Source of the DNA: Candidatus Pacearchaeota archaeon | GTDB taxonomy: Archaea; Nanobdellota; Nanobdellia; Pacearchaeales; GW2011-AR1 | Length of the DNA stretch: 64,000 bases | Assembly (NCBI GenBank): GCA_016188895.1 | Contig: JACPGZ010000017.1 | Coordinates: 2,538-66,537 of the forward strand | Reading direction: 5' to 3' | Part shown: positions 3,589 through 64,000 of the stretch, in pieces | Layout of the letters: every line of letters begins with the position of its first letter | Numbering within the stretch: position 1 is the stretch's first letter | Position numbers and translations under genes: made by a program | Notes under the pieces: model-generated | Seen by the model: only the letters and a program-made list of their open reading frames with translations | Databases searched by the model: none | Told to the model about the DNA's origin: nothing

Positions 3589-4973
3589 TGGAATTCCGCA
3601 ATATATTGCAAAATCTTCCTGAAGTAAGGGCTCCCATTGAGAAAAGACTAAGCTTTAATAAGAAATTTAAATGGACGCTTATTATACTTGCTTCATTTTT
3701 TGTTCTTTCTAATATTCCTTTATATGGATTGTCAAGGAATGCATTAGAAAGATTTGAATTTCTTTCTATTATTCTTGGAACTGATTTTGGCTCAATTATT
3801 TCATTGGGAATTGGGCCAATTGTCATGGCTTCTATAATTCTTCAATTGCTTGTTGGCTCGCAAATACTGAAGATTGATACAAAAACAGAGGAAGGCAGAA
3901 AGTATTTTCAGGGATTGCAAAAGCTATTGGTATTTTTCTTTATTATTTTTGAGGCATTGATATATGTTTTAATGGGCGGATTAGAAGCTCTTCCAGGATT
4001 CACACTAATATTGGTATTTCAGCTGATTCTTGGGGGACTGGCAATTATGTTTATGGATGAAGTTGTGAGTAAATGGGGATTTGGCTCTGGAATCAGCTTG
4101 TTCATTATTGCTGGTGTTGGATGGAGGCTTTTTGCAGGATTATTCCAGTTTATTGGGATTAACGGTGAAAACTGTCTTCTTAATTTTTACAGCACTCCTT
4201 GTGCAGGACAGATTTGGATTATTATCCAATCCATATTAAAAGGCGATCCTACTCAGTTGTTTAATGCATCTGCTGTAATTATTATCACAATTTCCATATT
4301 TCTTCTTGTTGTATGGGCCCAATCGCTAAAGGTAGAAGTGCCTCTTTCATATGAAAGGCTCCGTGGATATGGCATAAGATGGCCTTTGTCATTTTTTTAC
4401 TCAAGTGTTATCCCTGTTATTTTGGTTTCAGCTCTTGCTGCAAATATCCAGCTATTTGCCGGCTTGATTGAAAATTACCTCGGAAGGCCAACACTTTTAG
4501 GAGGTTTTTCAGCAGGACAGCCTATTTCAGGGTTTGCTTATTGGCTATCATCCACAAATATTGTCAATGCTCTAATAACAGGAAGCTTCCAATCTTCGTT
4601 TTTTTTGCAGGCAATTACACACACTATTTTTTATATGGCATTATCAGCTGTTTTTGCTGTATTTTGGGTTAAGACAAGCGGGATGGATGCGTCAAGCCAA
4701 GCGCGAAATATTATGTCATCTGGATTGCAGCTTCCTGGATTCAGAAAAGATGAAAGAGTTTTGGAAAGCATATTAAACAGATATATAATGCCTTTAACAA
4801 TCATGGGCGGGATTGCTGTAGGATTGCTTGCATCTGTTGCTAACATTCTTGGTGCATTGACAGGAGGCACTTCAATTCTGCTTGCTGTCATGATAACATA
4901 CCAGCTTTATCAGAACATTGCCCAGCAGCATGTTGCAGATATGCATCCAATATTGAAGAAGTTGACTGGATAA
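3588..4973 (+). CDS. secY: preprotein translocase subunit SecY
   Basis: 461 aa, ~10 TM segments, conserved SecY motifs, immediately downstream of L15. Confidence 0.95.
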   Translation: MEFRNILQNLPEVRAPIEKRLSFNKKFKWTLIILASFFVLSNIPLYGLSRNALERFEFLSIILGTDFGSIISLGIGPIVMASIILQLLVGSQILKIDTKTEEGRKYFQGLQKLLVFFFIIFEALIYVLMGGLEALPGFTLILVFQLILGGLAIMFMDEVVSKWGFGSGISLFIIAGVGWRLFAGLFQFIGINGENCLLNFYSTPCAGQIWIIIQSILKGDPTQLFNASAVIIITISIFLLVVWAQSLKVEVPLSYERLRGYGIRWPLSFFYSSVIPVILVSALAANIQLFAGLIENYLGRPTLLGGFSAGQPISGFAYWLSSTNIVNALITGSFQSSFFLQAITHTIFYMALSAVFAVFWVKTSGMDASSQARNIMSSGLQLPGFRKDERVLESILNRYIMPLTIMGGIAVGLLASVANILGALTGGTSILLAVMITYQLYQNIAQQHVADMHPILKKLTG

Positions 4974-11661: not shown

Positions 11662-11757
11662 GCCGCTGTCGCATAATGGTAGTGCACCAGCCTTGAGTTA
11701 TAAAAATAAGTAAGCTGGGCCCTTCGGGGCTTCCAGGTTCGATTCCTGGCAGCGGCG
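11662..11757 (+). tRNA. tRNA-Ser (anticodon TGA/UGA) with a ~15-nt intron at the canonical 37/38 position and a long variable arm
   Basis: Acceptor GCCGCTG/CAGCGGC, discriminator G. D-stem GCAT/GTGC. Anticodon stem CCAGC/GCTGG with loop CTTGAG, then intron TTATAAAAATAAGTA. Variable hairpin GCCCTTCGGGGC. T-arm CCAGG-TTCGATT-CCTGG. Confidence 0.7.
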
Positions 11758-23815: not shown

Positions 23816-23866
23816 ACTTTTTCTAAACAGATATACTTAAAAGTCAATTAAATCCTATGTTTTTAT

Positions 23867-23961
23867 GCAGGAGTGCCAGAGCGGTCAAATGGGCTTGGCT
23901 AAGGCCTATGTAGAAACCAAGTGGCTTAGTGCCTGCGAAGGTTCGAATCCTTCCTCCTGCA
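23867..23961 (+). tRNA. class II tRNA, probably tRNA-Leu (A73 discriminator, long variable arm), with an ~11-nt intron in the anticodon loop; anticodon not resolved
   Basis: Acceptor GCAGGAG/CTCCTGC+A. T-arm GAAGG-TTCGAAT-CCTTC. Anticodon stem CTTGG/CCAAG encloses CTAAGG+CCTATGTAGAA+A. Variable arm TGGCTTAGTGCCTGC. Canonical parsing gives anticodon AAG, which is unusual. Confidence 0.55.
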
Positions 23962-23966
23962 TTGAA

Positions 23967-53784: not shown

Positions 53785-54104
53785 AAATAAAATAGATATC
53801 TGAAATTCTTAAATTTATCGGTGTTTTTTGGCAATGATTATTAAATCGATAGCTTTAAATATAGGATATTTATCAAAATTCCATGGCAAGAAAAGCAAAA
53901 GAAAAAAAACAACCAGAGCAACCACAAGCAGAACAAGAGAAGCCAGCTGAACAAGAAACTCAAGAAGAGATGTAGTTAATTCTGCAGAAACTGGGAATTA
54001 ATTTGAATTAAATGTTAATATGTTAATTGATTTAGTGATTTAAGCGAACTTATTCTTAGAGTGAAGAAAAAAATATTTATATAGTATAGCCTATTGTTTT
54101 ACAT

Positions 54105-54299
54105 ATGGAACAATGGGAAAAAGATAGTGGGAAGTTTAAAAGTGATTGTAGGAAAAGTTATCCAGTACCAAGAGAAGAACAAAGGACTGAATATTGTAAA
54201 ATATGTGAGAAATATTATACTCCTTCTGAAATGTTTAAAAGTGGAATATGCAGGGATTGTGATTTGGATGATTATTTAAATAATTATTCTGAAGATTAA
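54105..54299 (+). CDS. small Cys-rich (zinc-ribbon-like) protein flanked by 20-bp direct repeats
   Basis: C...CKICEKYYTP...CRDCD. Flanked by GAACTTATTCTTAGNGTGNA at 54047 and 54401. Confidence 0.3.
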   Translation: MEQWEKDSGKFKSDCRKSYPVPREEQRTEYCKICEKYYTPSEMFKSGICRDCDLDDYLNNYSED

Positions 54300-54424
54300 G
54301 AATTTGGGCTGGTAAAATAAAGTTTGCAACTAAAACGGCTTTTAATGGCTCAAGGGAACTACCATACACTGAAGTGTATGGCGTCCACAAGTCAATTCAG
54401 AACTTATTCTTAGTGTTAAAAGTT

Positions 54425-54931
54425 TTATTCTAGGATTATAAACCTTTTATCATCTTTGTAATTCTTAAAGAATTCGTCGTCTTTATACTTTTCAAGAATG
54501 ATGTATCCTTTGTCTTTAAGAAATGAGTTAATCTCTTTTCTGAATCTACGGTCATGAATCATTTTATGATGGTTTGGACATAAACCAACTAGATTGGAGT
54601 CAGCGTTATTTTCATGATTATGATCTAAATGATGAAGATCTATAATTTTATCAAAACCACAGATAATACAGCTTGAAGTAATCTTTCTATATTTTTCTCT
54701 CTCAATATTATGGGATTTTATTATATTTTGTTCTTTAACCTTTTCTATATGGAAAACAGAGTTGTAGCAACCATCACATAATCCTTTAGCATGCATTGGT
54801 TTTTCTCTTCCACACCTTTTACAAGTTATTAACTTTGGTTGCCAAATTAATTTTTTATAACAAGTAGTACACATCTGTTTAGCATGATGTTCAACCTCTT
54901 TTTTACAATTTTTACAAATAATAATATTCAT
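54425..54931 (-). CDS. HNH endonuclease with N-terminal zinc ribbons
   Basis: Four CxxC pairs, then DLHHLDHNHENNADSNLVGLCPNHHKMIH (HNH motif). Confidence 0.7.
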   Translation of the reverse strand: MNIIICKNCKKEVEHHAKQMCTTCYKKLIWQPKLITCKRCGREKPMHAKGLCDGCYNSVFHIEKVKEQNIIKSHNIEREKYRKITSSCIICGFDKIIDLHHLDHNHENNADSNLVGLCPNHHKMIHDRRFRKEINSFLKDKGYIILEKYKDDEFFKNYKDDKRFIILE

Positions 54932-55037
54932 AAATTAATTAATCCGTTCGCATATATAAATATTTATTCCAACTTTAGAATGATTACGTTCGCATACTTA
55001 ATTACAGAACTACTCTTAATGGAGCTTGTGCGAAGGT

Positions 55038-55496
55038 TTAGGGATTATAGGGAAAATCAATATAATAAAAACTTATTTTTTGCGATTTTGGGAATCGATA
55101 AGGGTGCTTGATATATTTAATCCATTCTGAATGAATCCTAAAATCAACTAATTCGCTTAATCTTTCAAGTATTTCCTTTTGGCCTACTAACAACTCTTTT
55201 ATTCTATTAACCTTAAAACGTGAAGTATATGCAGGATGTGTTCTACCAAAAATTTTATCTCCTATTGCGAAAGAAGGATAAATCATAATTGGAGAGGGTT
55301 CTTGAGATAATTGAATGGAAGACCAGCCAGATACATCAATGTATGATACTACCCCTAGTGTAAATGGTCTTTGTTCTTTTGTTGTTCTATTTTGTTGTGG
55401 GCAGGGTCTTATCAATACAAGATCTCCTTCATTGACATCTATTGGTTTGGTAATTCTTTCTGGTAAGCTTTGGATGATTAATTCTAGTTGTGTCAT
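55038..55496 (-). CDS. hypothetical protein (152 aa)
   Basis: No confident family. Possibly a PUA/ASCH-like beta-barrel. Confidence 0.3.
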   Translation of the reverse strand: MTQLELIIQSLPERITKPIDVNEGDLVLIRPCPQQNRTTKEQRPFTLGVVSYIDVSGWSSIQLSQEPSPIMIYPSFAIGDKIFGRTHPAYTSRFKVNRIKELLVGQKEILERLSELVDFRIHSEWIKYIKHPYRFPKSQKISFYYIDFPYNP

Positions 55497-55596
55497 GGAA
55501 GAAGTCAGATTAGTTATTTTTAAATTTATCTATTAACACGAACTTTTTGCTGATGCGAAAAGTTCTGCGAGAAGTGAGGAAGTTTTAGCTATAAGA

Positions 55597-55803
55597 TTAG
55601 GTTGTAAGATTTTCAACAGACACATTAGACAGAAGATTTTTTGGAATGTGCTTGCTTACGAAAAGAAGTTCTATGCCTATGACATTGCCCTTTTCATCTA
55701 GATTCAGAATGGTGTTTTGATCTATAATCTTAGTCTTACTAAATTTTTCATTCGTTAATTTGATGTATATTGCATCTGCTTCTTTATCATATGTTATTTT
55801 CAT
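55597..55803 (-). CDS. DUF2283-family small protein (antitoxin-like partner)
   Basis: YDKEADAIYIKL...D.....G..IGIELL pattern. Overlaps the start of the upstream DUF4258 gene. Confidence 0.5.
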   Translation of the reverse strand: MKITYDKEADAIYIKLTNEKFSKTKIIDQNTILNLDEKGNVIGIELLFVSKHIPKNLLSNVSVENLTT

Positions 55804-56009
55804 AGTGGATATACGGTAATGACTTTTATATATTTTTCTCTTATATAAACAACTTCTATAATTGCTCTGCCTATATTCTTCCTTGCATAATAAACATTAT
55901 TGATTTTATTAATCATTTCTGCATATTTAATTGTTGAAATTACCTCGTCTTCCAAGATATTTCTCTCCCTCATTTGCTCTTTTGCATGTTTGGTAAACTC
56001 TATATGCAT
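55800..56009 (-). CDS. DUF4258-family small protein (toxin-like partner)
   Basis: HAKEQMRERNI.E.EV..TI......I.......R.+...........VV.....IKVITVY. Confidence 0.5.
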   Translation of the reverse strand: MHIEFTKHAKEQMRERNILEDEVISTIKYAEMINKINNVYYARKNIGRAIIEVVYIREKYIKVITVYPL

Positions 56010-56047
56010 CGGTGAATAAAATGAAGCTTATATAAATAATTTCTCAT

Positions 56048-56063
56048 CCCGAGCGCGCTCGGG
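56048..56063. repeat. perfect 16-bp GC-rich palindrome CCCGAGCGCGCTCGGG in an AT-rich intergenic region
   Basis: Self-complementary. Embedded in a locally GC-rich ~50-bp stretch. Confidence 0.8.
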
Positions 56064-56152
56064 CTTCGCCCTCGCTTGTTATCACCAGAAATCTTAGGAT
56101 TTTGCTCGGAATTTGAGAATTAAACGAACATTAAAATTGAAAATAAAGAAAT

Positions 56153-56488
56153 TTAGGATTCGCCTGTTATTTCTCTTTTAAGTTTATTTGCCTCTGCTTT
56201 ACGTCTTAAAAACATATAACAATCTAAAAAACCTAGTTTATACCCCTGTGCATGATCGTGTGTTCTCATCCAATCATGAAGCTGTTTGTTGTCTTTTTTT
56301 AATCTCTCTTCTTCTTCATTTCTATATTTTTGTGCTAAAAAATAAGCCATTGATTCCAAATCAACAACTGATAAGCCTTCTGGTGTATATTTTTCATCTG
56401 TCATAAAGTATACAGGAAATCTTTGTTTTAAAAATCTATCGTTTAACCGAACTTTATTGTTATGCTGGAAGTTGTTGGAAAAACGCAA
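56153..56488 (-). CDS. hypothetical protein (111 aa)
   Basis: ORF only. Confidence 0.3.
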   Translation of the reverse strand: MRFSNNFQHNNKVRLNDRFLKQRFPVYFMTDEKYTPEGLSVVDLESMAYFLAQKYRNEEEERLKKDNKQLHDWMRTHDHAQGYKLGFLDCYMFLRRKAEANKLKREITGES

Positions 56489-56842
56489 AAGCTTTAGCTT
56501 AAAAGATATTAAAAAATAAAAATTAGAAGAAGTGGGAAAGAATAAGTTGTATTTATCTTTTCATTAGCTTGTAGTTTCTTAAAAGTTTGGTAATGCCAAT
56601 TACAAGAAATGATAATCCAATAAGCCAATTGCTGACATTAGCTGGGAGATTAACGTTAATTAAAGGCAGTACCCAAAGCACACCTATAAGAGTTATAAGC
56701 CAAGCTGTTGTCTTCGCCATTTTAGTTTATTCTACCTCCTTTTTTAATAATATAATGATGCAAAAGAGGTTTATAAAATCTTGCTTTGTCTAGTATAAAA
56801 TTAGGTTTGAAAAATACGAACTTTTATGATGCTTTATAAAGC

Positions 56843-57000
56843 TTGTGTTGGAAAATGTGTTGGGTTTTGTGTTGGAGTTTATTTGACGACGATAAAATTG
56901 GGTGTTGAAAGGTGTTTAAGGGTGTTTAGACAGCTGTCTAAAGGGTTTTTTCGGTGTTGAAAAGGGTGTTTAAAACAGATTTTTCTGTGATTTTGATGAT
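56843..57000. repeat. iteron-like cluster of GTGTTGG / GGTGTT(T/G)AAA direct repeats plus palindrome TAGACAGCTGTCTA
   Basis: tgtgttggaaaatgtgttgggttttgtgttggag ... ggtgttgaaaggtgtttaagggtgtttagacagctgtctaaagggttttttcggtgttgaaaagggtgtttaaaa. Related motifs recur at 57350-57470 and 58380-58660. Confidence 0.6.
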
Positions 57001-57110
57001 TGGACACTATAAAAACATGATCAAAAATGATTGCTTTAAAATAAACAATTTATCGACGATATTGGCATTGAGTGGAAAAGATTTATAAAGAAGAATTTGG
57101 TTAATTAATT

Positions 57111-57770
57111 ATGTTTAGGTGGCTGTTTAGTGGCAAAAAAGAGATAGATAAGATAAAAGAAGATACTCGAAGAGCTTTTGAATCTGTGAAAAATGATATG
57201 GATAAGGCTGGCAAATGGTTTAAACACCTGTCCAAAACTGATTCTGACCAGGAAGATAAGATTAGTGAGCTAAAATCAAAAATATCGACGCTGGAAAAAG
57301 ATATTGAAAAACTGCATAAAATTGTTTTGTTGAACAAAAGTGAAAATTTTAGACAGGTGTTTAGACAGCCTTCAACAGCTGTCTATAGACAAGCACCTGT
57401 CCAAGCTGTCCAAACAGGTGTTGAAAACGCTGTCCAAACAGGTGTTGAAGGCTATTTTTTGATTGATTTAAATAACTTGTCTGTGATGGAAAGAGCAATT
57501 GTTTATTTATTGTTGAATAGTGACATGAAATTAAGCTATGAGGATATTGCTGCAATGCTTGGAAAAAGCAGGTCAACAATAAGAAGCCAAATAAGTGTGA
57601 TAAAACAAAAAAGTGAGAATTTAATAAAAGAGTATATTGAAAAAAACGGTAAGAAAAGAGTATATATTCCTGATGAAATCAAAGAAAAGATACTTAAAAA
57701 TAAGAAAGTGAAGGAGATTAAACGAAAAAATAAGAAAAATAGTGAGAAAGAAGAGGTGAGTTATGCGTAA
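57111..57770 (+). CDS. coiled-coil / repeat / C-terminal HTH protein (paralog of the 58025 gene)
   Basis: N-terminal coiled-coil. Central repeat (VQAVQTGVENAVQTGVEG) encoded by iteron-like DNA. C-terminal HTH LSYEDIAAMLGKSRSTIRSQISVIKQK. Confidence 0.4.
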   Translation: MFRWLFSGKKEIDKIKEDTRRAFESVKNDMDKAGKWFKHLSKTDSDQEDKISELKSKISTLEKDIEKLHKIVLLNKSENFRQVFRQPSTAVYRQAPVQAVQTGVENAVQTGVEGYFLIDLNNLSVMERAIVYLLLNSDMKLSYEDIAAMLGKSRSTIRSQISVIKQKSENLIKEYIEKNGKKRVYIPDEIKEKILKNKKVKEIKRKNKKNSEKEEVSYA

Positions 57771-58024
57771 GATGGTGATTTGTGTATGTGAAAATGAAAA
57801 AGTGAGGGTAATTAAACGAAATTTAATTAGAAGATTAGATAAAATAAAGTAAAATAAGTTGAAAATAAGTAAGTGAGAGATAAAAATAACCGCTCAAACA
57901 AGTAAAAGTGAGGATTAAAGGGGAGAATAAATTTTAAAATAAAAAGTGAAAATGTAGATAAAAATATCTAATAAGGCTTAGGGAACATTAATAATGCTGT
58001 TGTAGAAGCTATTCGGTATAGCGT

Positions 58025-58816
58025 TTATAGTTCTCTAAGCCTTAATATTGTGTCTAAAGTAGCTATTTTCTTTAGATCAGGTGAAATGTGAAGGAGTATT
58101 TTTTTGTTGTTTATTTTTTCTTTTGATATTGGGATGCCTTTATTAATTAAGTGCTTTATATATTCTCGAATAGAGCTTTCAGATATATTCATTTCAGATG
58201 CAATTAGATGGTAATTCACTTCGCGACCTTCTTCCTCAAGTTGGTAGAGATGTGAAAAAACAAGTAACTCCTTTTTAGTTAATCTTTTAAATTTGAGGCG
58301 GATTTCTTTCTTTATTGTGTCTAAAGAGGCAAGGATTTCAGATGCTTTTTCCATGCTTTCCCTGGTTTTCCGGCTCGATACTTCATCATTAAAGCGAACT
58401 TTATCTGTTGGAAAATGTGTTGGATTATCTGTTGGTTTGTTTGTTGGTTTGTTTGTTGGATTATCTGTTGGAACCCCTCTGTTTCCTATGGAAACATCAT
58501 TATACTGGCTTTTTACAGCTTTTAAAGGCAAATCATCTGTTGGATTTTGTGTTGGATTTTGATTATCTGTTGGAATTTCTATGTTTTGTGTTGGATTTAT
58601 GTGTTGGATTGTTGGAAAATGTGTTGGGTTTTGGGTTTTGGTGTTTTCATCTGGTTTTTTCTGTTTTATCTCGTTAGATACTTCCTGAATCAGTGATATT
58701 AGTGCTGGGAATTCGTCTGTAATTTTATTGATTTTTAGCTTTAATGATTCTATCTCCTGCTCTATTCTATTGATGTCTTCTTTTACTTTTGAGAATGCTT
58801 GTTTTATCTGTTCCAT
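58025..58816 (-). CDS. coiled-coil / Pro-Thr-Asn repeat / C-terminal HTH protein
   Basis: N-terminal coiled-coil. NPTHFPT / PTDNPTNKPTNKPTDNPTHFPT repeats. C-terminal HTH NYHLIASEMNISESSIREYIKHLINKGIP. Confidence 0.4.
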   Translation of the reverse strand: MEQIKQAFSKVKEDINRIEQEIESLKLKINKITDEFPALISLIQEVSNEIKQKKPDENTKTQNPTHFPTIQHINPTQNIEIPTDNQNPTQNPTDDLPLKAVKSQYNDVSIGNRGVPTDNPTNKPTNKPTDNPTHFPTDKVRFNDEVSSRKTRESMEKASEILASLDTIKKEIRLKFKRLTKKELLVFSHLYQLEEEGREVNYHLIASEMNISESSIREYIKHLINKGIPISKEKINNKKILLHISPDLKKIATLDTILRLREL

Positions 58817-58846
58817 GATTATAGATGAGTTTGGGATTTAATAATA

Positions 58847-59113
58847 TTATTGGGTTTTTTTATAAGCATCATATGCTTGAGGAGAAAGCATCCAGCGTTT
58901 TCTTCTGAGATAGATATCACCTTCGCTATTCTTGTTGATTTCAGTTACTAGCTGTTTTTCTTTTAATTCTAAAAGAATTGATTTTATGAATTCCTCGTCT
59001 CGTGCAAGCTCTCTTGCGAGATTTACAGTATACTGCGGTCTTGGGAAATTGTGAAATAAGATTGATAGAATCTGCTCTGATATCTTGTCCTTTTTCTCTT
59101 TTGAGATTTTCAT
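58847..59113 (-). CDS. small winged-helix DNA-binding protein
   Basis: 88 aa, ...TVNLARELARDEEFIKSILLELKEKQLV... wHTH-like. Confidence 0.4.
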   Translation of the reverse strand: MKISKEKKDKISEQILSILFHNFPRPQYTVNLARELARDEEFIKSILLELKEKQLVTEINKNSEGDIYLRRKRWMLSPQAYDAYKKTQ

Positions 59114-59234
59114 TTTCCTGTGAAAGAAAGGTTTAATAAGCTTTTAAAATTTTCAGTTCTGCTATTTTTATGATCAGATGAAAACGAATAAATAATATTT
59201 AATAAATATCCGATTTAGTAAAGTATTTATAGGT

Positions 59235-60281
59235 GTGATATATTATTTTATGATGAAAGTATATAATGGTTTATCTAGAAATCAGGTAATTGAAATTCAT
59301 TCTTTTGTTATGAAAAAACGAAAAGATTTAGGATATGGACAAACAAGGATTTATAGATTAGTTAAGGAAAAATTTGGAGTTGAAATAAAAGAGAATACCC
59401 TATCTGGATGGATTTTTCGAGGAATAAAACCATTTGGAAATGAAAAAACTCAATTTAAACCTAAGCCAAGACCTCAAAAAGAAGAGCTTTACGAATTGTA
59501 TATCAATCAAAAACAAAGCTCTGAAAAAATAGCCAAGAAGTATGATGTTTCAACGATTATTGTAATTAATTGGCTTAAATCTTATAAAATTCCTACCAGA
59601 AATCATCTTGAGTCTATGCGTACTTTGGATGTAAGAAGACAACTTAGAGAAATAAAACTAAGAAGACCAACTAAAAAGTATAATGAATTAATTCCTGAGA
59701 AAGCGTATATTCTGGGGGTCTTATGTGGGGATGCTTGTTTATATAAAAAAACGATTAAATTAGAAATAAGGCGTGATGAAGATTTTATTGACGAATTTGT
59801 TAGATGTTTTGAGAAAGTTTATGGTTTAGAATATAATTATAAATATTATAAACCAAAAAATACATTTGTTGCACAGATTAATTCTGAAATCATATCTCAA
59901 GATATTATCAAATATGGTAATTTTAAAACCCGAAGTTGGGAAGTTCCAAAAGAAATAATAGAATCGAAAAATGAAAAGATTATTGGTTCTTATTTAAAAG
60001 GTTTTTATGATAGTGAGGGAAGTGTTTCACGTTGTGCAATAACTTCTTCTTCGATTAATAAAGATGGTCTAAGAAATATTGCTCTTTTATTGAAAAAATT
60101 GGGAATAGAAACAACTTTAAAAAGCTATGGAAATGGAAAATATTGTGTTTTGTATATATTTAGAAAGGGAAGATTTAAGATATTTAGGGAAAGAGTTGGG
60201 TTTACGATAAAAAGAAAATTGAATAAGATAGACGAAACTTTAAATACAGGTTTTTTTAGTAAAAGATCTATTGCTAATTAG
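59235..60281 (+). CDS. LAGLIDADG-family homing endonuclease (two-motif, free-standing) with N-terminal HTH region
   Basis: Two LAGLIDADG-like motifs: AYILGVLCGDACLY and YLKGFYDSEGSV. Confidence 0.65.
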   Translation: MIYYFMMKVYNGLSRNQVIEIHSFVMKKRKDLGYGQTRIYRLVKEKFGVEIKENTLSGWIFRGIKPFGNEKTQFKPKPRPQKEELYELYINQKQSSEKIAKKYDVSTIIVINWLKSYKIPTRNHLESMRTLDVRRQLREIKLRRPTKKYNELIPEKAYILGVLCGDACLYKKTIKLEIRRDEDFIDEFVRCFEKVYGLEYNYKYYKPKNTFVAQINSEIISQDIIKYGNFKTRSWEVPKEIIESKNEKIIGSYLKGFYDSEGSVSRCAITSSSINKDGLRNIALLLKKLGIETTLKSYGNGKYCVLYIFRKGRFKIFRERVGFTIKRKLNKIDETLNTGFFSKRSIAN

Positions 60282-60321
60282 TTTAATTCCAAATATTTTT
60301 AAATAGTTTAAGAAAAATAAA

Positions 60322-62907
60322 ATGACAATAAGTTATGTTGAAAAACCACATACAAGAGAAGAAGTTGAAAAAACTTTAAATCCTCTTGTAAGAGAATGGT
60401 TCTATAGTAAATTTAGAGAGTTCTCTCTTACACAACTCTATGGAGTAAAAAATATAAGAGATAGAAAAAATATTCTAATCACTGCGCCAACGGGGGGGAC
60501 AAAAACTCTAACAGCTTTTCTGAGTATTATCAATTACTTAGTTGAATTATCATTAAAGAATGAATTGGAGAATAAAGTTTATGCTGTTTACATAAGCCCA
60601 CTTAAAGCACTTTCTTCAGACATCTTCGTTAATCTTGTTCAACCTCTAAAAGAGATAGAAGAGTTGTCACGAAAAAAGGGATTAAAATTACAAAATATTA
60701 GAGTTGGTCTTAGAACTGGAGATACTGATGCAAAGGAAAGAGCACATATGCTTAGAAAACCTGCTCATATATTGATAACCACTCCAGAAACACTCGGAAT
60801 TGTTCTTAATGCGCCAAAGTTTTCCCAGGCTTTGAAAGCTGTTGAGTTTGTCATTATTGATGAGATACATGCTCTTGCTAATAAGAGAGGAGTGTTTTTA
60901 TCATTATGCATTGAGAGATTAGTTGATTTGAGCAGCATTACTCCTGTCAGGATTGGATTAAGTGCTACAATTGCTCCTTTAGAAGAGATTGCTAGATTTT
61001 TGTCGCTGAAAGAGAAATGCATTATAGCTGATGTTCAGTTTATCAAGAAAACAGATATTGATGTTTTTATTCCTGTAAGGCATCTTATTGAGACTGATTC
61101 TAAAGAGATGCATTCTGGATTATATGGGCTAATTGATGAGCTGATTCAGGAGCATAAAACAGTTATTGTATTTACAAATACGAGGTCTGCTACTGAAAGG
61201 GTTGTGCATCATTTGAAAGAGAAATTTCCTAAGAAATATATTGATGCTATTGGAGCGCATCACTCTTCTTTGAGTAAGCATCACAGACAAGGGATTGAGC
61301 AGGGATTGAGAGATGGGAAATTAAAGGTAGTTGTGACAAGCACTAGCTTAGAGCTTGGGATTGATATAGGATATGTTGATTTAGTTATTCTTTTGGGAAG
61401 CCCTAAGAGCAGTGCAAGAGCTTTGCAAAGAATTGGAAGATCAGGGCATAAGTTGCATGATGTTGCAAAAGGAAGATTTATTGTGCTTGACAGGGATGAT
61501 TTGGTTGAATGCGGGATTTTGATGAAGGAGTGTAAGGAAAAGAAAATAGATAAGGTGCAGATTCCTAAAAATTGTTTAGATGTTCTTGCCCAGCAAATTT
61601 ATGGAATGGCTATATATAAGGTTTGGAATGCTGATGAGATGTTTAATCTGATTAGAAAAAGCTATTGCTATGAAACATTATCAAGAAATGAGTTTTTTTC
61701 TGTTGTAAGTTATCTTTCAGGAGGATATAACTTAGAGAACAGGAGTGTTTATGCAAAAATATGGTATGACCCTGATAGTAATGAGATTGGAAAAAGAGGA
61801 AAGCTTGCTAGAATGATTTATATGACAAATCTTGGGACAATTCCTGAAGAGAGTTTTGTCAATGTGGTTATATCTGGCGGAGAAAAGAAAGGAGAAAAGA
61901 TTGGGGTAATTGATGAGGCTTTTTTGGAAAGGATGAAACCAGGAGATGTTTTTGTTTTAGGCGGTGAAAGATATGTGTTTAATTATACAAAAGGAATGAA
62001 TGTTTATGTTTCTCACAGTGTTCATCGCCAGCCAACAATTCCTTCATGGTTTTCAGAGATGCTGCCTTTGAGTTTTGACTCTGCGTTAGAGATTGGAAGA
62101 TTCAGAAGGCTTGTTAATGAGAGGTTTGATAAGAAGTCTGCGAAAAAAGAGATAATAGAGTTTATAAAAAAGCATCTTTATTGCAAGGATGATGTTGCAG
62201 GGTCTATTTACGAGTATTTTTTGCACCAGTATAAGTTTTCAAAGATTCCTCATGACCAAAGAATTATTGTTGAGGAGTATAAAGGTGAAAAGAGATATTT
62301 TGTATTTCATACGCTTTTTGGAAGAAGGGTTAATGATGCGCTTTCAAGGGCGTTTGCAATGACTGCAGCATATTCTGGTGGGAGAGATGTTGAAGTTGGA
62401 ATAAGTGATAATGGATTTTTCCTTTCAGGAGAAAAGATAAATATTCAGAAATGCATTGAGCTTGTTAAGACTAAGAATTTTGATGCCTTGCTGAAAGAAA
62501 GTATTGAGAAAAGCGAGATTTTGAAAAGAAGATTTAGGCATTGCGCAACTAGGGGATTGATGATATTAAGAACATATAAGGGGGTAAGCAAGAGTGTTGG
62601 AAAGCAGCAGATGAAATCTGGTTTTATTTTAGGTGCTGTGAAAAAGATATCTGATGAATTTCCTATATTAAAAGAAGCTCGGCGCGAGGTTTTAGAAGAT
62701 GTGATGGATATTAATAATGCGAGAAAGGTTTTGCAGTGGATTGAGCAAGGAAAGATAAAGATAGAATTGCAAAGGACAGAGCTTCCAAGCCCGTTTGCAA
62801 CTAATTTGATATTGCAGGGCTATAGTGACTTGATAAAGATTGAGGATAAAATTGCATTCCTGAAGAGGATGTATGATGAAGTAAAGAAGAGGATTGGGGA
62901 AGAGTGA
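60322..62907 (+). CDS. lhr: Lhr-family ATP-dependent DNA helicase (superfamily 2, DEIH box)
   Basis: Motif I APTGGTKTL, motif II DEIHAL, motif VI QRIGRSGH. 861 aa with Lhr-like C-terminal domains. Confidence 0.8.
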   Translation: MTISYVEKPHTREEVEKTLNPLVREWFYSKFREFSLTQLYGVKNIRDRKNILITAPTGGTKTLTAFLSIINYLVELSLKNELENKVYAVYISPLKALSSDIFVNLVQPLKEIEELSRKKGLKLQNIRVGLRTGDTDAKERAHMLRKPAHILITTPETLGIVLNAPKFSQALKAVEFVIIDEIHALANKRGVFLSLCIERLVDLSSITPVRIGLSATIAPLEEIARFLSLKEKCIIADVQFIKKTDIDVFIPVRHLIETDSKEMHSGLYGLIDELIQEHKTVIVFTNTRSATERVVHHLKEKFPKKYIDAIGAHHSSLSKHHRQGIEQGLRDGKLKVVVTSTSLELGIDIGYVDLVILLGSPKSSARALQRIGRSGHKLHDVAKGRFIVLDRDDLVECGILMKECKEKKIDKVQIPKNCLDVLAQQIYGMAIYKVWNADEMFNLIRKSYCYETLSRNEFFSVVSYLSGGYNLENRSVYAKIWYDPDSNEIGKRGKLARMIYMTNLGTIPEESFVNVVISGGEKKGEKIGVIDEAFLERMKPGDVFVLGGERYVFNYTKGMNVYVSHSVHRQPTIPSWFSEMLPLSFDSALEIGRFRRLVNERFDKKSAKKEIIEFIKKHLYCKDDVAGSIYEYFLHQYKFSKIPHDQRIIVEEYKGEKRYFVFHTLFGRRVNDALSRAFAMTAAYSGGRDVEVGISDNGFFLSGEKINIQKCIELVKTKNFDALLKESIEKSEILKRRFRHCATRGLMILRTYKGVSKSVGKQQMKSGFILGAVKKISDEFPILKEARREVLEDVMDINNARKVLQWIEQGKIKIELQRTELPSPFATNLILQGYSDLIKIEDKIAFLKRMYDEVKKRIGEE

Positions 62908-62988: not shown

Positions 62989-64000
62989 ATGTCTATATTT
63001 CATGGAAACAGAGCTCTATAAACAAAATCCTTGGTGGGAGGGTAAATCTGAAATTGAAAGCATTCCTAGAGAAGAGCATCTTACTAGACTTATGCAAAAT
63101 TTAGAAAGTAGGGAGATATTATTTTTGATGGGGTTGAGGAGAGTTGGCAAAACAACAATAATGAAACAGTTTGTAGCGAGATTGTTGAATAAAAAAATTG
63201 CTCCTGATGATATTTTGTATGTCAGTTTGGATTCTTTTAATTTATCTGAATTTTCTATCCATGAAATTGTAAAAAAGTATAGAGAAATTCATAAAAAAAG
63301 TGTTGAGAAAAGAGTATACTTATTTTTTGATGAAGTTGTGGAAAAAGAAAATTTTGAGCAGGAACTAAAAAGCTTATATGATTCTGAAAATGTTAAAATG
63401 ATTTGTTCGTCTTCCAAAGCCACATTAATGATGGATAAGAGGGCATATTTGACTGGTAGGACAAAAACAATAGAAGTTATGCCTTTAACATTTCAAGAAT
63501 TTTTGATTTTTAAAAAAGTAGAAATCAAAAAAGCAGATAGGGCTATTCTTGAATCTTATTTTAAGGATTATTTAAAAACCGGAGGAATACCTTATTATGT
63601 GCTGACAGAAGATAGAGAATATTTAAATGAGTTAGTGCAAAATGTTATATATAAGGATATAATTGCCAGATATAATATAACCAATGAGAAAGTGATTAAG
63701 GAGTTGTTTAATTTATTATGCGAAAGAGTTGGGAAGATAACCAGCTATAATAAACTTGCTAATATATTGGGAATCTCTGTTGATAGTGTAAAGAGATATG
63801 TTAGATATTTTGAGAAATCTTATCTCTTTTATGTTGTTGATAGATACTCCAAATCTTTGAACGAGAGGATAACTTCTCCGAAGAAAATTTATATAGGAGA
63901 TGTTGGTATTAAAAACCTAATTACTGGTTATAGAGATCTTGGCGCGAGTTATGAGAATCTTGTTTTTCTTAAGATCAAAAATAAAGATCCTTATTATTAT
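62989..64000 (+). CDS. AAA+ ATPase with DUF4143-like C-terminal region (3' end outside the window)
   Basis: Walker A GLRRVGKTT, Walker B LFFDEV. Frame is open to the window end. Confidence 0.6.

What the first reader, a model, noticed from the sequence alone, without database searches (positions are those of the whole stretch)
53800..60300. Mobile-element-like segment: HNH and LAGLIDADG endonucleases, DUF4258/DUF2283 pair, iteron-like repeats and paralogous HTH proteins
Within ~6.5 kb there are an HNH endonuclease with zinc ribbons (54425-54931), a putative toxin/antitoxin-like DUF4258-DUF2283 pair with overlapping stop/start (55597-56009), a GC-rich perfect palindrome (56048-56063), a dense field of GTGTTGG / GGTGTTNAAA iterons with a TAGACAGCTGTCTA palindrome (56843-57000), two paralogous proteins with coiled-coil, low-complexity repeat and C-terminal HTH (57111-57770, 58025-58816), a small wHTH protein, and a free-standing two-motif LAGLIDADG endonuclease (59235-60281). 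The composition is typical of an integrated plasmid/virus remnant or a replication-origin-like region.
Basis: partly seen in the sequence, partly recalled or inferred. Interest (0 to 1): 0.55.

Follow-up and report, generated by a model that had tools for sequence, protein, structure and literature searches.

The report
Replication-origin neighbourhood, not a mobile element
This stretch is a resident part of a Pacearchaeota (DPANN archaeon) chromosome that lies beside the replication origin in related species, and it is unusual because origin-type DNA signals, including a textbook origin recognition box, are written into the coding sequence of two DNA-binding protein genes.

Summary
The main interpretation, an integrated plasmid or virus remnant, is not supported. 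The fallback, an origin-like region, is close.

The core (56.8-59.1 kb) holds iterons, gene P6 (57111-57770), gene P7 (58025-58816) and a small winged-helix gene, wH88. It recurs in the same order in at least 81 of 83 related loci. Relatives of P6 occur in 485 GTDB species genomes.

In 46 of 83 loci a canonical oriC-orc1/cdc6-dp1 unit follows 1-1.5 kb downstream. In genomes with the Lhr helicase after wH88, as here, it follows behind Lhr. In this genome it probably lies just past the window end.

P7 carries a consensus origin recognition box (58473-58493) in its coding strand, in 77 of 77 complete copies. Rare codons are fixed there at 99-100%. P6 encodes iteron copies in its linker. The arrays are spaced in step with the DNA helix.

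Only the TA pair, o152 and part of o111 vary. The LAGLIDADG gene travels with Lhr.

Most likely this is an origin-associated protein-DNA platform bound by Orc1/Cdc6 and by P6 and P7. All binding is inferred.

The parts
54425..54931 (-). HNH endonuclease with N-terminal zinc ribbons; a semi-conserved upstream neighbour of the core
   Evidence: PHROG HNH families score 8.8e-8 to 3e-6. Pfam is only weak. Homologues at 40-61% identity lie 1-3 kb upstream of P6 in 18 of 83 loci, and also in L168.
55519..55590 (.). Conserved 72-nt hairpin-containing element beside the variable toxin-antitoxin cassette
   Evidence: It is 90% identical to L084:4610-4682, and L084 has a second copy at 3763-3835. The flanking genes differ between the two genomes.
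55597..56009 (-). DUF4258 (55800-56009) and DUF2283 (55597-55803) toxin-antitoxin-like pair; a variable cassette
   Evidence: Pfam E 5e-10 and 9e-16. The pair is absent from all 83 related loci. The closest relative has a ParE-type pair at this position instead.
56048..56063 (.). GC-rich perfect 16-nt palindrome; function unknown; lies inside the variable segment
   Evidence: It is unique in the window and is not shared with L084.
56553..56720 (-). 55-aa small membrane protein (TM55), a conserved left neighbour of the repeat field
   Evidence: tblastn hits in 13 of 83 loci, in L084 (85% identity) and in L168.
56845..56875 (-). Three CCAACAC repeats at a 12-nt period. This is the same motif as the tail of the ORB and the PT-repeat DNA of P7.
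   Evidence: The same triple repeat lies upstream of the P6 homologue in L001.
56886..57062 (+). Iteron field. It holds five GGTGTT(T/G)A copies (56901-56972), including the palindrome TAGACAGCTGTCTA (56927-56940). CG(A/T)CG palindrome elements flank it at 56886-56892 and 57053-57059.
   Evidence: The motif [GC][GC]TGTTTA occurs at 13.2 per kb in the 400 nt upstream of P6 in 82 of 83 loci, against 0.1-0.5 per kb elsewhere. Spacing peaks at 10, 20-21 and 30-31 nt. The window count is 11 against 2.1 expected.
57077..57089 (+). Probable P6 promoter (BRE/TATA, AAAGATTTATAAA), 22 nt upstream of the start codon
   Evidence: The sequence is and its position. The same element lies at the same place in all relatives printed. 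The promoter assignment is inferred from the archaeal consensus.
57111..57770 (+). P6: coiled-coil, disordered linker, winged HTH, basic tail. The coding DNA carries iteron copies at 57219-57228(-), 57354-57363 and 57405-57448 (VQTG repeats), a TCGACG element at 57285-57290, and AAGTGA(G/A) copies at 57611 and 57706.
   Evidence: 681 homologues. Model: helix 3-79, disordered 79-117, wHTH 120-186. Synonymous-codon fixation sits at the motif positions: TCG 91% against 4% background, CAC 82% against 21%, AGT 100% against 19%, GTG 100% against 13%.
57611..57950 (+). Array of AAAGTGAG(AGTTA) repeats, all on one strand. It spans the 3' end of P6 and the P6-P7 spacer, with copies at 57611, 57706, 57754, 57800, 57871, 57906 and 57944.
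   Evidence: The motif is present in 65 of 76 spacers. Spacing is phased at about 10.4 nt (R 0.48, p about 1e-13).
58025..58816 (-). P7: coiled-coil, disordered PT-rich linker, helix, MarR/Lrs14-like winged HTH. It is a paralogue of P6 in the HTH domain.
   Evidence: 1283 homologues. Model: residues 54-143 are disordered. hhalign probability 95.9%. Foldseek gives MarR-type hits.
58473..58493 (-). Consensus origin recognition box TTCCATAGGAAACAGAGGGGT inside P7, encoding S-I-G-N-R-G-V
   Evidence: It is the sole match in 64 kb at up to 2 mismatches. It is present in 77 of 77 loci with a complete P7. Codons TCC, GGG and GAC are fixed at 99-100% against backgrounds of 5-21%. It matches published ORB consensus sequences (PMC4153887).
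58406..58627 (-). Thirteen CCAACA repeats (the ORB-tail motif), mostly at a 12-nt period, encoding the PT repeats of P7
   Evidence: The codons CCA and ACA are 85-100% fixed at these columns.
58847..59113 (-). wH88: an 88-aa winged-helix protein, third member of the conserved triad
   Evidence: tblastn hits in 76 of 83 loci. Pfam HTH_69 is weak. It shows no unusual synonymous constraint, so it serves as an internal control.
59235..60281 (+). Free-standing LAGLIDADG endonuclease with N-terminal HTH, linked to the Lhr gene that follows
   Evidence: Pfam 7e-10. About 130 homologues in DPANN. It is absent from all 83 loci, yet homologues sit immediately upstream of Lhr in L166-L169.
60322..62907 (+). 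Lhr-type helicase. It is the right-hand neighbour in the genome class to which the window belongs.
   Evidence: NCBIfam PRK13767, 1139.7 bits. It follows wH88 in 21 of 83 loci. It lies 5-6 kb upstream of cdc6 in six metagenome loci.

Best explanation
The segment is a resident, lineage-wide part of the Pacearchaeota chromosome that belongs to the replication-origin neighbourhood.

Its core is a protein-DNA platform. Two paralogous coiled-coil/winged-helix proteins (P6 and P7) and a small winged-helix protein (wH88) are encoded amid four families of repeated DNA signals:
- GsTGTTTAA iterons;
- a TTATCGwCGATAA palindrome;
- AAAGTGAG repeats;

Many of these signals are written into the DNA that encodes the disordered linkers of P6 and P7. 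Those protein segments are therefore conserved because the DNA is.

The likely mechanism is as follows. Orc1/Cdc6 binds the ORB in P7. P6, P7 and wH88 bind the phased repeat arrays as coiled-coil dimers or oligomers. Together they form a higher-order complex beside oriC that controls or organises initiation, or origin-region segregation.

Shown here: the conservation, the adjacency to the origin in relatives, the DNA-level constraint, the helical phasing and the protein architecture. Inferred: every binding event and the functional outcome.

The HNH gene, the LAGLIDADG gene (which travels with Lhr) and the DUF4258/DUF2283 cassette are selfish passengers.
For: Synteny. The P6-P7-wH88 order holds in 81 of 83 and 76 of 83 loci, and 485 GTDB species genomes carry a P6 relative.

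Origin adjacency.
- orc1/cdc6 (Pfam Cdc6_C 1.6e-25) lies 2.8-4.7 kb downstream of the P6 start in 45 of the 46 loci with cdc6 (6.0 kb in L044), followed by dp1.
- The cdc6-upstream spacer shows ORB(-), a microsatellite AT-rich region, then two ORB(+).
- Genomes with Lhr after wH88 have the order triad, Lhr, p140, p86, cdc6.

ORB.
- The window has a single hit, with no mismatch.
- The ORB is present in 77 of 77 complete P7 genes and never in the 5.5 kb upstream flank.
- Its sequence and spacing match published ORBs.
- Extended copies that are not coding lie upstream of P6 in 6 loci.

DNA-level selection.
- Rare codons are fixed at the motif positions. In P7, TCC is 100% against 5% background, GGG 99% against 21%, and GAC 99% against 20%. 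In P6, TCG is 91% against 4%.
- wH88, analysed at the same depth, shows nothing comparable.
- The amino acids that vary in P7 map to the degenerate ORB positions.
- The constrained segments are predicted to be disordered.

Helical phasing of two arrays.

Precedent. Cdc6-bound ORB clusters lie inside the dp1 coding sequence of Thermococcales (PMC1904270).
Against: - No protein-DNA binding has been tested, and there is no experimental origin mapping.
- The window has only one ORB, no strongly AT-rich unwinding region (maximum 84% AT per 80 nt in 56.5-59.1 kb) and no cdc6, p140, p86 or dp1. The locus is therefore not shown to be an origin in this genome. Its closeness to oriC here is extrapolated from other genomes.
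- The winged-helix folds are generic MarR/Lrs14 types.
- Small iteron palindromes also occur at scattered sites 1.3-5.6 kb upstream in 14 loci. That would also fit an ordinary transcription factor.
- The sequences are phylogenetically related, so the p-values for phasing and codon fixation are overstated.
Confidence: 0.6

Rival explanations
1. Integrated plasmid or virus remnant: the 6.5 kb segment entered as one mobile element carrying its own Rep-like HTH proteins, iterons, endonucleases and a TA module.
For: Selfish genes are present: HNH, LAGLIDADG and a TA pair. The TA cassette differs from that of the closest relative. Archaeal origins are thought to have been captured from extrachromosomal elements (PMC4010727), so a very ancient mobile ancestry cannot be excluded.
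Against: The core is conserved in order in 81 of 83 loci and is widespread across 485 species genomes. L168 shares nearly the whole layout at 45-62% identity. There is no integrase, tRNA or boundary repeat, and GC content matches the window. There are no relatives in plasmid, phage or IMG/VR collections, and PHROGs gives only a generic HTH hit.
Confidence: 0.03
2. Ordinary autoregulated transcription-factor locus. P6, P7 and wH88 are regulators, and the repeats are operators for their own and nearby promoters. The ORB is an Orc1 regulatory site or a coincidence, and there is no role in replication.
For: The folds are generic MarR/Lrs14-like wHTH. A CG(A/T)CG palindrome sits right next to the P6 TATA box at -75 to -25. 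Isolated iteron palindromes lie in other intergenic regions nearby.
Against: Four motif families spread over about 1.8 kb, with 5-15 phased copies each. Many are deep inside coding DNA and in a convergent 3' spacer, far from any promoter. The ORB matches the full 21-nt consensus, is fixed in 77 of 77 loci, and recurs as non-coding copies. The locus is persistently linked to oriC-cdc6-dp1.
Confidence: 0.15
3. A separate origin with its own initiators. P6 and/or P7 would be lineage-specific initiator proteins whose genes contain their own origin, as phage lambda ori lies inside gene O and as Sulfolobus oriC3 pairs with WhiP.
For: Iterons lie in the linker-coding part of the gene for the presumed binding protein. 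This is the lambda O arrangement, which I cite from established knowledge and did not test here. The iterons are phased. The ORB lies within the module. The module stays intact when Lhr separates it from cdc6. P7 has weak Pfam hits to HTH_36 and DnaD_N.
Against: There is no marked AT-rich unwinding element in the module. A textbook oriC lies only 1-1.5 kb away in about half of the species. The folds show no Rep, Cdt1 or WhiP-specific features. No helicase-loading partner is evident.
Confidence: 0.12
4. Origin-proximal centromere. The palindromic iterons act like parS sites, and P6/P7 act like centromere-binding proteins for chromosome segregation.
For: P6 gives weak hits to the ParB HTH (Pfam 6e-6; TIGR00180 3.7e-5). 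There is a main array plus scattered palindromic sites in the origin-proximal kilobases. The arrays are phased, and the proteins have coiled-coil oligomerisation domains.
Against: No ParB N-terminal domain was found, and no ParA/SegA-type ATPase gene appeared in the conserved neighbourhood. The HTH hits are below family cut-offs.
Confidence: 0.1

Closest known systems
Thermococcales oriC-cdc6-dp1 island, with a second ORB/mini-ORB cluster inside the dp1 coding sequence (Matsunaga et al. 2007, PMC1904270)
   Same: The gene order oriC-cdc6-dp1 is found in the relatives. ORB elements lie inside a protein-coding gene near the origin and are conserved across an order. In Pyrococcus, Cdc6 was shown to bind such sites.
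   Different: Here the ORB lies in a lineage-specific wHTH gene upstream of oriC, not in dp1. It is a single full-length consensus ORB with a repeat tail. It sits with three other repeat families and two paralogous DNA-binding genes. No binding data exist.
Canonical archaeal ORB (consensus CTTCCAGTGGAAACGAAAGGGGT; Methanomassiliicoccales GTTCCAGTGGAAATGA-AGGGGT; PMC4153887 Table 2)
   Same: The window element TTCCATAGGAAACAGAGGGGT and the family consensus TTTCCAnnGGAAATgaaGGGGT share the dyad, the 4-nt spacer and the G-string.
   Different: In Pacearchaeota the element extends as GGGGTTCCAACA followed by (GACA)n or CCAACA repeats. It is translated as part of a protein.
Phage lambda ori inside gene O, and iteron plasmids generally (established knowledge, not tested here)
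   Same: Repeated, helically phased binding sites lie in the DNA that encodes the flexible linker of a DNA-binding protein. The gene and the cis-acting site therefore overlap.
   Different: The motifs are shorter (9-10 bp against 17-22 bp). P6 and P7 have no Rep or O fold and no significant family match. The setting is a chromosome with an Orc1/Cdc6 origin next door.
Lrs14/MarR-type archaeal winged-helix regulators (for example AbfR2, PDB 6cmv)
   Same: These are the best structural matches for the C-terminal domains of P6 and P7 (Foldseek E about 2e-4 to 1e-3). NCBIfam gives weak Lrs14 and Sta1 hits.
   Different: P6 and P7 add a 50-80-residue N-terminal coiled coil and a long disordered linker. 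All family scores lie below the curated cut-offs.
Free-standing LAGLIDADG and HNH homing endonucleases; DUF4258/DUF2283 toxin-antitoxin pairs
   Same: Domain content. Presence/absence polymorphism at a fixed site next to Lhr. Cassette swapping of the TA pair.
   Different: The HNH gene and the LAGLIDADG gene keep their positions in a relative at about 60% identity (L168). They are therefore long-term residents, or repeated homers, rather than recent arrivals.

Membership tests
Archaeal oriC region (ORB-type origin) | Consensus ORB (dyad TTCCAnnGGAAA plus G-string) | tested here: met
   Located at 58473-58493(-) with no mismatch, and the only hit in 64 kb. Present in 77 of 77 complete P7 loci. 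Matches published consensus sequences.
Archaeal oriC region (ORB-type origin) | Two or more ORBs in inverted orientation flanking an AT-rich unwinding element | tested here: not met
   Within the window there is one ORB only, and no segment above 84% AT per 80 nt in 56.5-59.1 kb. The feature is met in relatives, but in the cdc6-upstream spacer 1-1.5 kb away.
Archaeal oriC region (ORB-type origin) | Adjacent initiator gene orc1/cdc6 | tested here: inconclusive
   There is no cdc6 in the window. It is present downstream in 46 of 83 related loci. In genomes of the Lhr class it lies 5-6 kb beyond the start of Lhr, which in the window would fall past position 64000.
Archaeal oriC region (ORB-type origin) | Initiation of replication at the site, and Orc1/Cdc6 binding | not testable with these tools
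   This needs marker-frequency analysis, 2D gels, ChIP or gel-shift assays.
Integrated mobile element (plasmid, virus or island) | Integrase or recombinase, plus att repeats or a tRNA target at the borders | tested here: not met
   None of the 13 ORFs scanned between 53266 and 62907 has a recombinase domain. The only tRNAs lie at 11.7 and 23.9 kb. There are no long direct repeats bounding the segment.
Integrated mobile element (plasmid, virus or island) | Patchy presence or absence among relatives | tested here: not met
   The core is present in 81 of 83 loci. Only o152, the TA pair and part of o111 are variable.
Integrated mobile element (plasmid, virus or island) | Homologues in virus or plasmid collections | tested here: not met
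   No matches for P7 in plasmids, or for P6 in phages or IMG/VR. PHROGs gives only a generic HTH hit.
Iteron replicon (Rep plus iterons; lambda O type) | Directly repeated, helically phased binding sites | tested here: met
   Spacing peaks at 10, 20-21 and 30-31 nt for the GsTGTTTA motif. The AAGTGAG motif is phased at about 10.4 nt.
Iteron replicon (Rep plus iterons; lambda O type) | Initiator of a Rep or O family fold | tested here: not met
   There is no Rep family hit at or above cut-off. The folds are generic MarR/Lrs14.
ParB-parS centromere | ParB N-terminal (CTPase) domain and a partner ParA ATPase | tested here: not met
   Only the HTH segment matches, and below cut-off. No ParA-like gene appeared in the loci whose gene families were listed.
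DUF4258/DUF2283 toxin-antitoxin pair | Both domains in adjacent, overlapping small genes | tested here: met
   Pfam scores lie above the gathering cut-offs (40.0 against 25, and 58.2 against 23). The genes overlap by 4 nt. Toxicity is not testable.
LAGLIDADG homing endonuclease (free-standing) | LAGLIDADG domain(s), and presence/absence polymorphism at a fixed site | tested here: met
   LAGLIDADG_3 scores 39.4 bits against a cut-off of 22.5. Two motifs are visible in the sequence: ILGVLCGDA and LKGFYDSEG. The gene is absent between wH88 and Lhr in 21 loci and present upstream of Lhr in L166-L169. Cleavage is not testable.
HNH endonuclease | His-Me finger (HNH) motif recognised by a family profile | tested here: inconclusive
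   Pfam HNH_2 E 0.57. Five PHROG HNH families score E 8.8e-8 to 4e-4. The motif DLHHLDHNHENNADSNLVGLCPNHHKMIHD is visible in the sequence.

The most novel reading that the evidence does not exclude
Pacearchaeota have a lineage-specific origin-associated system in which the genes for two paralogous DNA-binding proteins also serve as the cis-acting DNA. A consensus Orc1/Cdc6 box and arrays of iterons are encoded in-frame in their disordered linkers. The same 1.8 kb therefore acts both as coding sequence and as a phased protein-DNA scaffold. That scaffold could be an auxiliary origin, a centromere or an initiator-titration site. P6 and P7 would then be new archaeal replication or segregation factors.
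Probability: 0.35. Interest if true: 0.8.

Novelty: new variant of a known kind. Interest (0 to 1): 0.62.

Why it matters
Nothing on replication origins in Pacearchaeota or other DPANN archaea turned up in the paper library I searched.

This locus gives a concrete marker of the origin neighbourhood across a whole order that is computable from sequence. It also supplies three candidate origin-associated proteins.

It is an unusually clean natural case of DNA-level function dictating protein sequence. Invariant 'protein motifs' such as SxGNxGVPT, VQTG repeats and PT repeats sit in disordered linkers and are explained by embedded binding sites.

That has practical consequences. Conservation-based annotation would misread these segments as functional protein motifs.

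It also gives testable predictions for Orc1/Cdc6 binding and for how very small genomes overlay regulatory and coding information.

Tried and rejected
- **Pseudogene idea.** I first read the intergenic repeats as a decayed fragment of a P7 or P6 paralogue, because the minus frame reads TPTQNPTHFPTQAL*. I rejected this for three reasons. The array is kept at high density in 82 of 83 loci. It is palindromic and helically phased. The TAA stop is part of the intergenic consensus, whereas the coding copies read CAA.
- **Known RNA.** Rfam and ARAGORN find nothing in 53.8-60.3 kb.
- **GC skew for origin prediction.** The profile follows the coding strand and is uninformative at this scale.
- **Sequence search of solved structures with the P6 profile.** It returned only coiled-coil noise and weak sigma-factor and Lrs14 hits.
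- **Fold searches.** They gave only generic MarR/ArsR/Lrs14 winged helices, with no initiator-specific fold.
- **Plasmid, phage and IMG/VR searches for P6 and P7.** All were empty.
- **Extending the window.** I tried to look up its own proteins, but Lhr and P6 are not on record, and P7 is found only on a 1.1 kb contig. The position of cdc6 in this genome could therefore not be read directly.
- **Scan of ten large window ORFs for Cdc6.** None was found. tblastn with a Pacearchaeota Cdc6, p140, p86 and dp1 also found nothing in the window.
- **Search for a second strong ORB near P6 and P7.** It is present upstream of P6 in only 6 loci and is absent from the window.

Full report
**Observation**

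- The toxin-antitoxin-like pair is DUF2283 (E 9e-16) and DUF4258 (E 5e-10), overlapping by 4 nt.
- The 59235-60281 ORF has a LAGLIDADG_3 domain (E 7e-10).
- The 16-nt GC palindrome at 56048-56063 is perfect and unique in the window.
- The HNH assignment of 54425-54931 is not significant in Pfam. PHROG profiles support it (E 8.8e-8).
- The repeat field is real and non-random. GGTGTTKA occurs 11 times in the 64 kb window against 2.1 expected. No shuffle reached 11, and 9 of the copies lie in 56901-57448.
- The two 'paralogous' proteins are not similar by BLASTP (E 0.19). Their C-terminal HTH domains are homologous by profile comparison (probability 95.9%, E 5.8e-9).

**Organism and conservation**

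The window comes from a Candidatus Pacearchaeota (DPANN) contig of 110 kb. I call 57111-57770 'P6', 58025-58816 'P7' and 58847-59113 'wH88'.

P6 and P7 each have hundreds to more than a thousand full-length homologues at about 45-50% identity. Relatives of P6 occur in 485 GTDB species genomes.

I fetched 83 related loci. The order P6(+), P7(-), wH88(-) holds in 81 loci for P7 and in 76 for wH88. Most failures are at contig ends.

Other neighbours recur less often:
- An HNH homologue lies 1-3 kb upstream in 18 loci.
- Small membrane proteins (TM49, TM55) recur in 13 loci each.
- Lhr follows wH88 in 21 loci.

The LAGLIDADG gene, the DUF4258/DUF2283 pair, o152, o111, PriS and the 172-aa protein were not found in any of these loci.

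The closest relative (L084, about 76% nucleotide identity) shares PriS, TM49, o87, the 5' part of o111, TM55, the repeat field, P6 and P7. Where the window has the DUF4258/DUF2283 pair, L084 has a ParE-type pair.

A more distant genome (L168) has HNH, TM55, iterons, P6, P7 with its ORB, wH88, LAGLIDADG, Lhr, then p140 and a PRC-barrel gene. That is nearly the whole window layout at 45-62% protein identity.

The LAGLIDADG gene sits immediately upstream of Lhr in three other contexts (L166/L167, L168, L169), so it travels with Lhr.

There is no integrase, tRNA, bounding repeat or compositional break. P6 and P7 have no relatives in plasmid, phage or IMG/VR collections. The mobile-element reading is therefore rejected for the core. 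Only small passengers are mobile.

**The repeats are conserved DNA elements**

Upstream of every P6 homologue lies the same kind of array. The motif [GC][GC]TGTTTA occurs at 13.2 per kb in the 400 nt upstream of P6 in 82 of 83 loci, against 0.1-0.5 per kb in the flanks. It is often arranged as the palindromes AAACAGCTGTTT or TGTTTAAACA. Spacing peaks at 10, 20-21 and 30-31 nt.

A second element, TTATCG(A/T)CGATAA, sits at two preferred positions. One is next to the P6 TATA box and the other is at the far side of the array. In the window they are at 57053-57059 and 56886-56892.

A third family, AAAGTGAG(AGTTA), fills the convergent P6-P7 spacer in 65 of 76 loci, always on one strand. Its spacing is a multiple of about 10.4 nt. 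The Rayleigh R is 0.48 and p is about 1e-13, even when only pairs that include a non-coding copy are counted. These p-values ignore shared ancestry and are upper bounds on significance.

**A consensus origin recognition box inside P7**

On the coding strand of P7 the window has TTCCATAGGAAACAGAGGGGT (58473-58493). It is the only match in 64 kb at up to two mismatches.

The family consensus is TTTCCAnnGGAAATgaaGGGGTTCCAACAGACAGACAG. It is present in all 77 loci with a complete P7, always on the P7 coding strand. It never occurs in the 5.5 kb further upstream.

Its dyad, 4-nt spacer and G-string match the published archaeal ORB (CTTCCAGTGGAAACGAAAGGGGT) and the Methanomassiliicoccales ORBs (GTTCCAGTGGAAATGA-AGGGGT) (PMC4153887).

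Six loci have an additional non-coding copy upstream of P6. In the three strongest (L001, L004, L046) it keeps the extended tail (GGGGTTCCAACA, or GGGGCTTCGACA in L046). The element is therefore a DNA element first.

The CCAACA 'PT repeats' of P7 and the three CCAACAC copies in the window's intergenic field (56845-56875) are repeats of that tail.

**The DNA signals dictate protein sequence**

I built codon alignments of 81 P6 and 76 P7 genes and compared codon use with that of other ORFs in the same loci.

In P7:
- Ser109 is TCC in 100% (background 5%).
- Gly114 is GGG in 99% (background 21%).
- Asp118 is GAC in 99% (background 20%).
- Gln is CAG in 97% (background 39%).
- The ACA, CCA, GTT and AGA codons in this segment are at about 100%.

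In P6:
- The L-S-S/T-I codons read TTA TCG TCG ATA. TCG is at 91% and 88% (background 4%). This is the palindrome element.
- W-I-K-H-L contains TTAAACACC. CAC is at 82% (background 21%).
- K-Q-L/V-F-K is AAACAG(C/G)TGTTTAAA.
- The conserved VQTG repeats are GTT CAA ACA GGT. This is the iteron with TAA changed to CAA.
- Ser168 AGT (100% against 19%) and Val200 GTG (100% against 13%) create AAAGTGAG.

wH88, analysed at the same depth, shows nothing comparable: its maximum log-likelihood ratio is 26, against 200-221 for P6 and P7. The amino acids that vary within the P7 segment (codons 110 and 113) coincide with the degenerate ORB positions. Codon 116 has two forms, CCA (Pro) and TCG (Ser).

AlphaFold models place these invariant segments in disordered linkers with pLDDT below 50. 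These are residues 54-143 of P7 and 79-117 of P6. They lie between an N-terminal long helix and a C-terminal winged HTH.

**Link to the replication origin**

In 46 of 83 loci a 403-aa Orc1/Cdc6 (Cdc6_C 1.6e-25, Cdc6_lid 7e-24) lies downstream, 2.8-4.7 kb from the P6 start in 45 of them (6.0 kb in L044). It follows wH88, a 140-aa gene and an 86-aa PRC-barrel gene. The PolD small subunit dp1 comes next.

The spacer upstream of cdc6 is a textbook oriC. It has an ORB on the minus strand, then a very AT-rich microsatellite tract, then two ORB-like boxes on the plus strand.

I then started from cdc6 in metagenomes. Fourteen loci show the triad 2.3-4.2 kb upstream. Six show Lhr 5-6 kb upstream of cdc6 with p140 and p86 in between. 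One of these (L130) also has wH88 beyond Lhr.

The genome class to which the window belongs therefore has this order: triad, (LAGLIDADG), Lhr, variable gene(s), p140, p86, oriC, cdc6, dp1.

The window itself contains no cdc6, p140, p86 or dp1. After Lhr comes an AAA_14/DUF4143 ATPase that runs off the end. Its oriC is thus probably just beyond position 64000. This is an inference. I could not fetch the rest of the contig.

**What it most likely is**

The segment is a resident origin-neighbourhood module. I consider it most likely (0.6) that it is a protein-DNA platform. Orc1/Cdc6 would bind the ORB in P7. The coiled-coil/wHTH proteins P6 and P7, and perhaps wH88, would bind the phased arrays. 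The resulting complex would act on initiation control or origin-region organisation.

The precedent is the Cdc6-bound ORB cluster inside the dp1 gene of Thermococcales (PMC1904270). The closest formal analogy for 'binding sites encoded in the linker of the binding protein's own gene' is lambda ori within gene O. I cite that from established knowledge and did not test it.

**Weaknesses**

- No binding data exist.
- The window has only one ORB and no strong AT-rich element inside the module.
- The winged-helix folds are generic.
- Isolated iteron palindromes occur elsewhere nearby, which would also fit a transcription factor.

**Rivals**

An ordinary autoregulated regulator locus gets 0.15, a separate origin with its own initiators 0.12, a centromere 0.10, and a mobile-element remnant 0.03.

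**Novelty**

The kind of system is known: an archaeal origin region with ORBs and origin-linked genes. I found no description of Pacearchaeota or DPANN origins in the library. The dual use of coding DNA over about 1.8 kb, with 99-100% fixation of rare codons across an order, is unusual. I rate it a new variant of a known kind, with interest 0.62.

Noticed in passing
window 55519-55590; L084:4610-4682 and L084:3763-3835: A 72-nt element with a near-perfect hairpin (GAACTTTTTGC...GCGAAAAGTTC) followed by GCGAGAAGTGAGGAAGTTTTAGC. It is 90% identical between genomes whose flanking genes differ. It lies next to swapped toxin-antitoxin cassettes and has two copies in the relative. It could be a cassette junction, a small RNA or a terminator.
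   Followed up: partly
P7 homologues in L004-L083, just 3' of the ORB (window equivalent 58406-58471): In most species the ORB is followed by an in-frame (GACA)n tetranucleotide repeat read as T-D-R-Q repeats, with GAC, AGA, CAG and ACA fixed at 93-100%. The window's lineage has CCAACA-based 12-nt repeats instead.
   Followed up: partly
P7 codon 116 across loci (window 58469-58471): The ORB tail has two discrete forms, GGGGTTCCAACA (Pro, CCA; 50 loci) and GGGGTTTCGACA (Ser, rare codon TCG; 24 loci). This is a two-base switch that changes the amino acid but keeps a defined DNA variant.
   Followed up: no
L025, L031 and L061 at about -2.7 to -3.2 kb from P6; L007, L010, L028 and L068 intergenic sites: Isolated iteron palindromes (CCTGTTTAAACAGCTGTTT) occur 1.3-5.6 kb upstream in 14 loci. 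In three loci the site lies inside an ORF of 213-217 aa, where it would read K-Q-L-F-K-Q.
   Followed up: partly
L016, L028, L032, L037, L049 and L054, spacer upstream of cdc6: The presumed unwinding region of the relatives' oriC consists of pure AT microsatellites, (AAT)n or (ATA)n and (TATAA)n, of variable length. It is flanked by ORBs that are more degenerate than the one inside P7.
   Followed up: partly
L166:2501-6493: In one relative the Lhr helicase itself carries an intein with a LAGLIDADG domain (1330 aa), while a free-standing LAGLIDADG gene sits directly upstream. That makes two endonucleases of the same kind at one gene.
   Followed up: no
window 11662-11757 and 23866-23962: Two tRNA genes of about 96 nt are probably intron-containing. 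Rfam finds both, while ARAGORN finds only the second (tRNA-Leu, anticodon AAG).
   Followed up: no
window 62967 to the end (>64000): An AAA_14/DUF4143 ATPase gene follows Lhr and runs off the window. In relatives this position holds other genes, such as a metallophosphoesterase in L168, so the slot between Lhr and p140 is variable.
   Followed up: partly
L019, L022 and L060 at about -3.9 to -4.6 kb from P6: These stretches contain GTTCAAACAGCTG-type repeats that resemble the VQT-repeat coding DNA of P6. This suggests a further P6-like paralogue or repeat-bearing gene upstream in some genomes.
   Followed up: no
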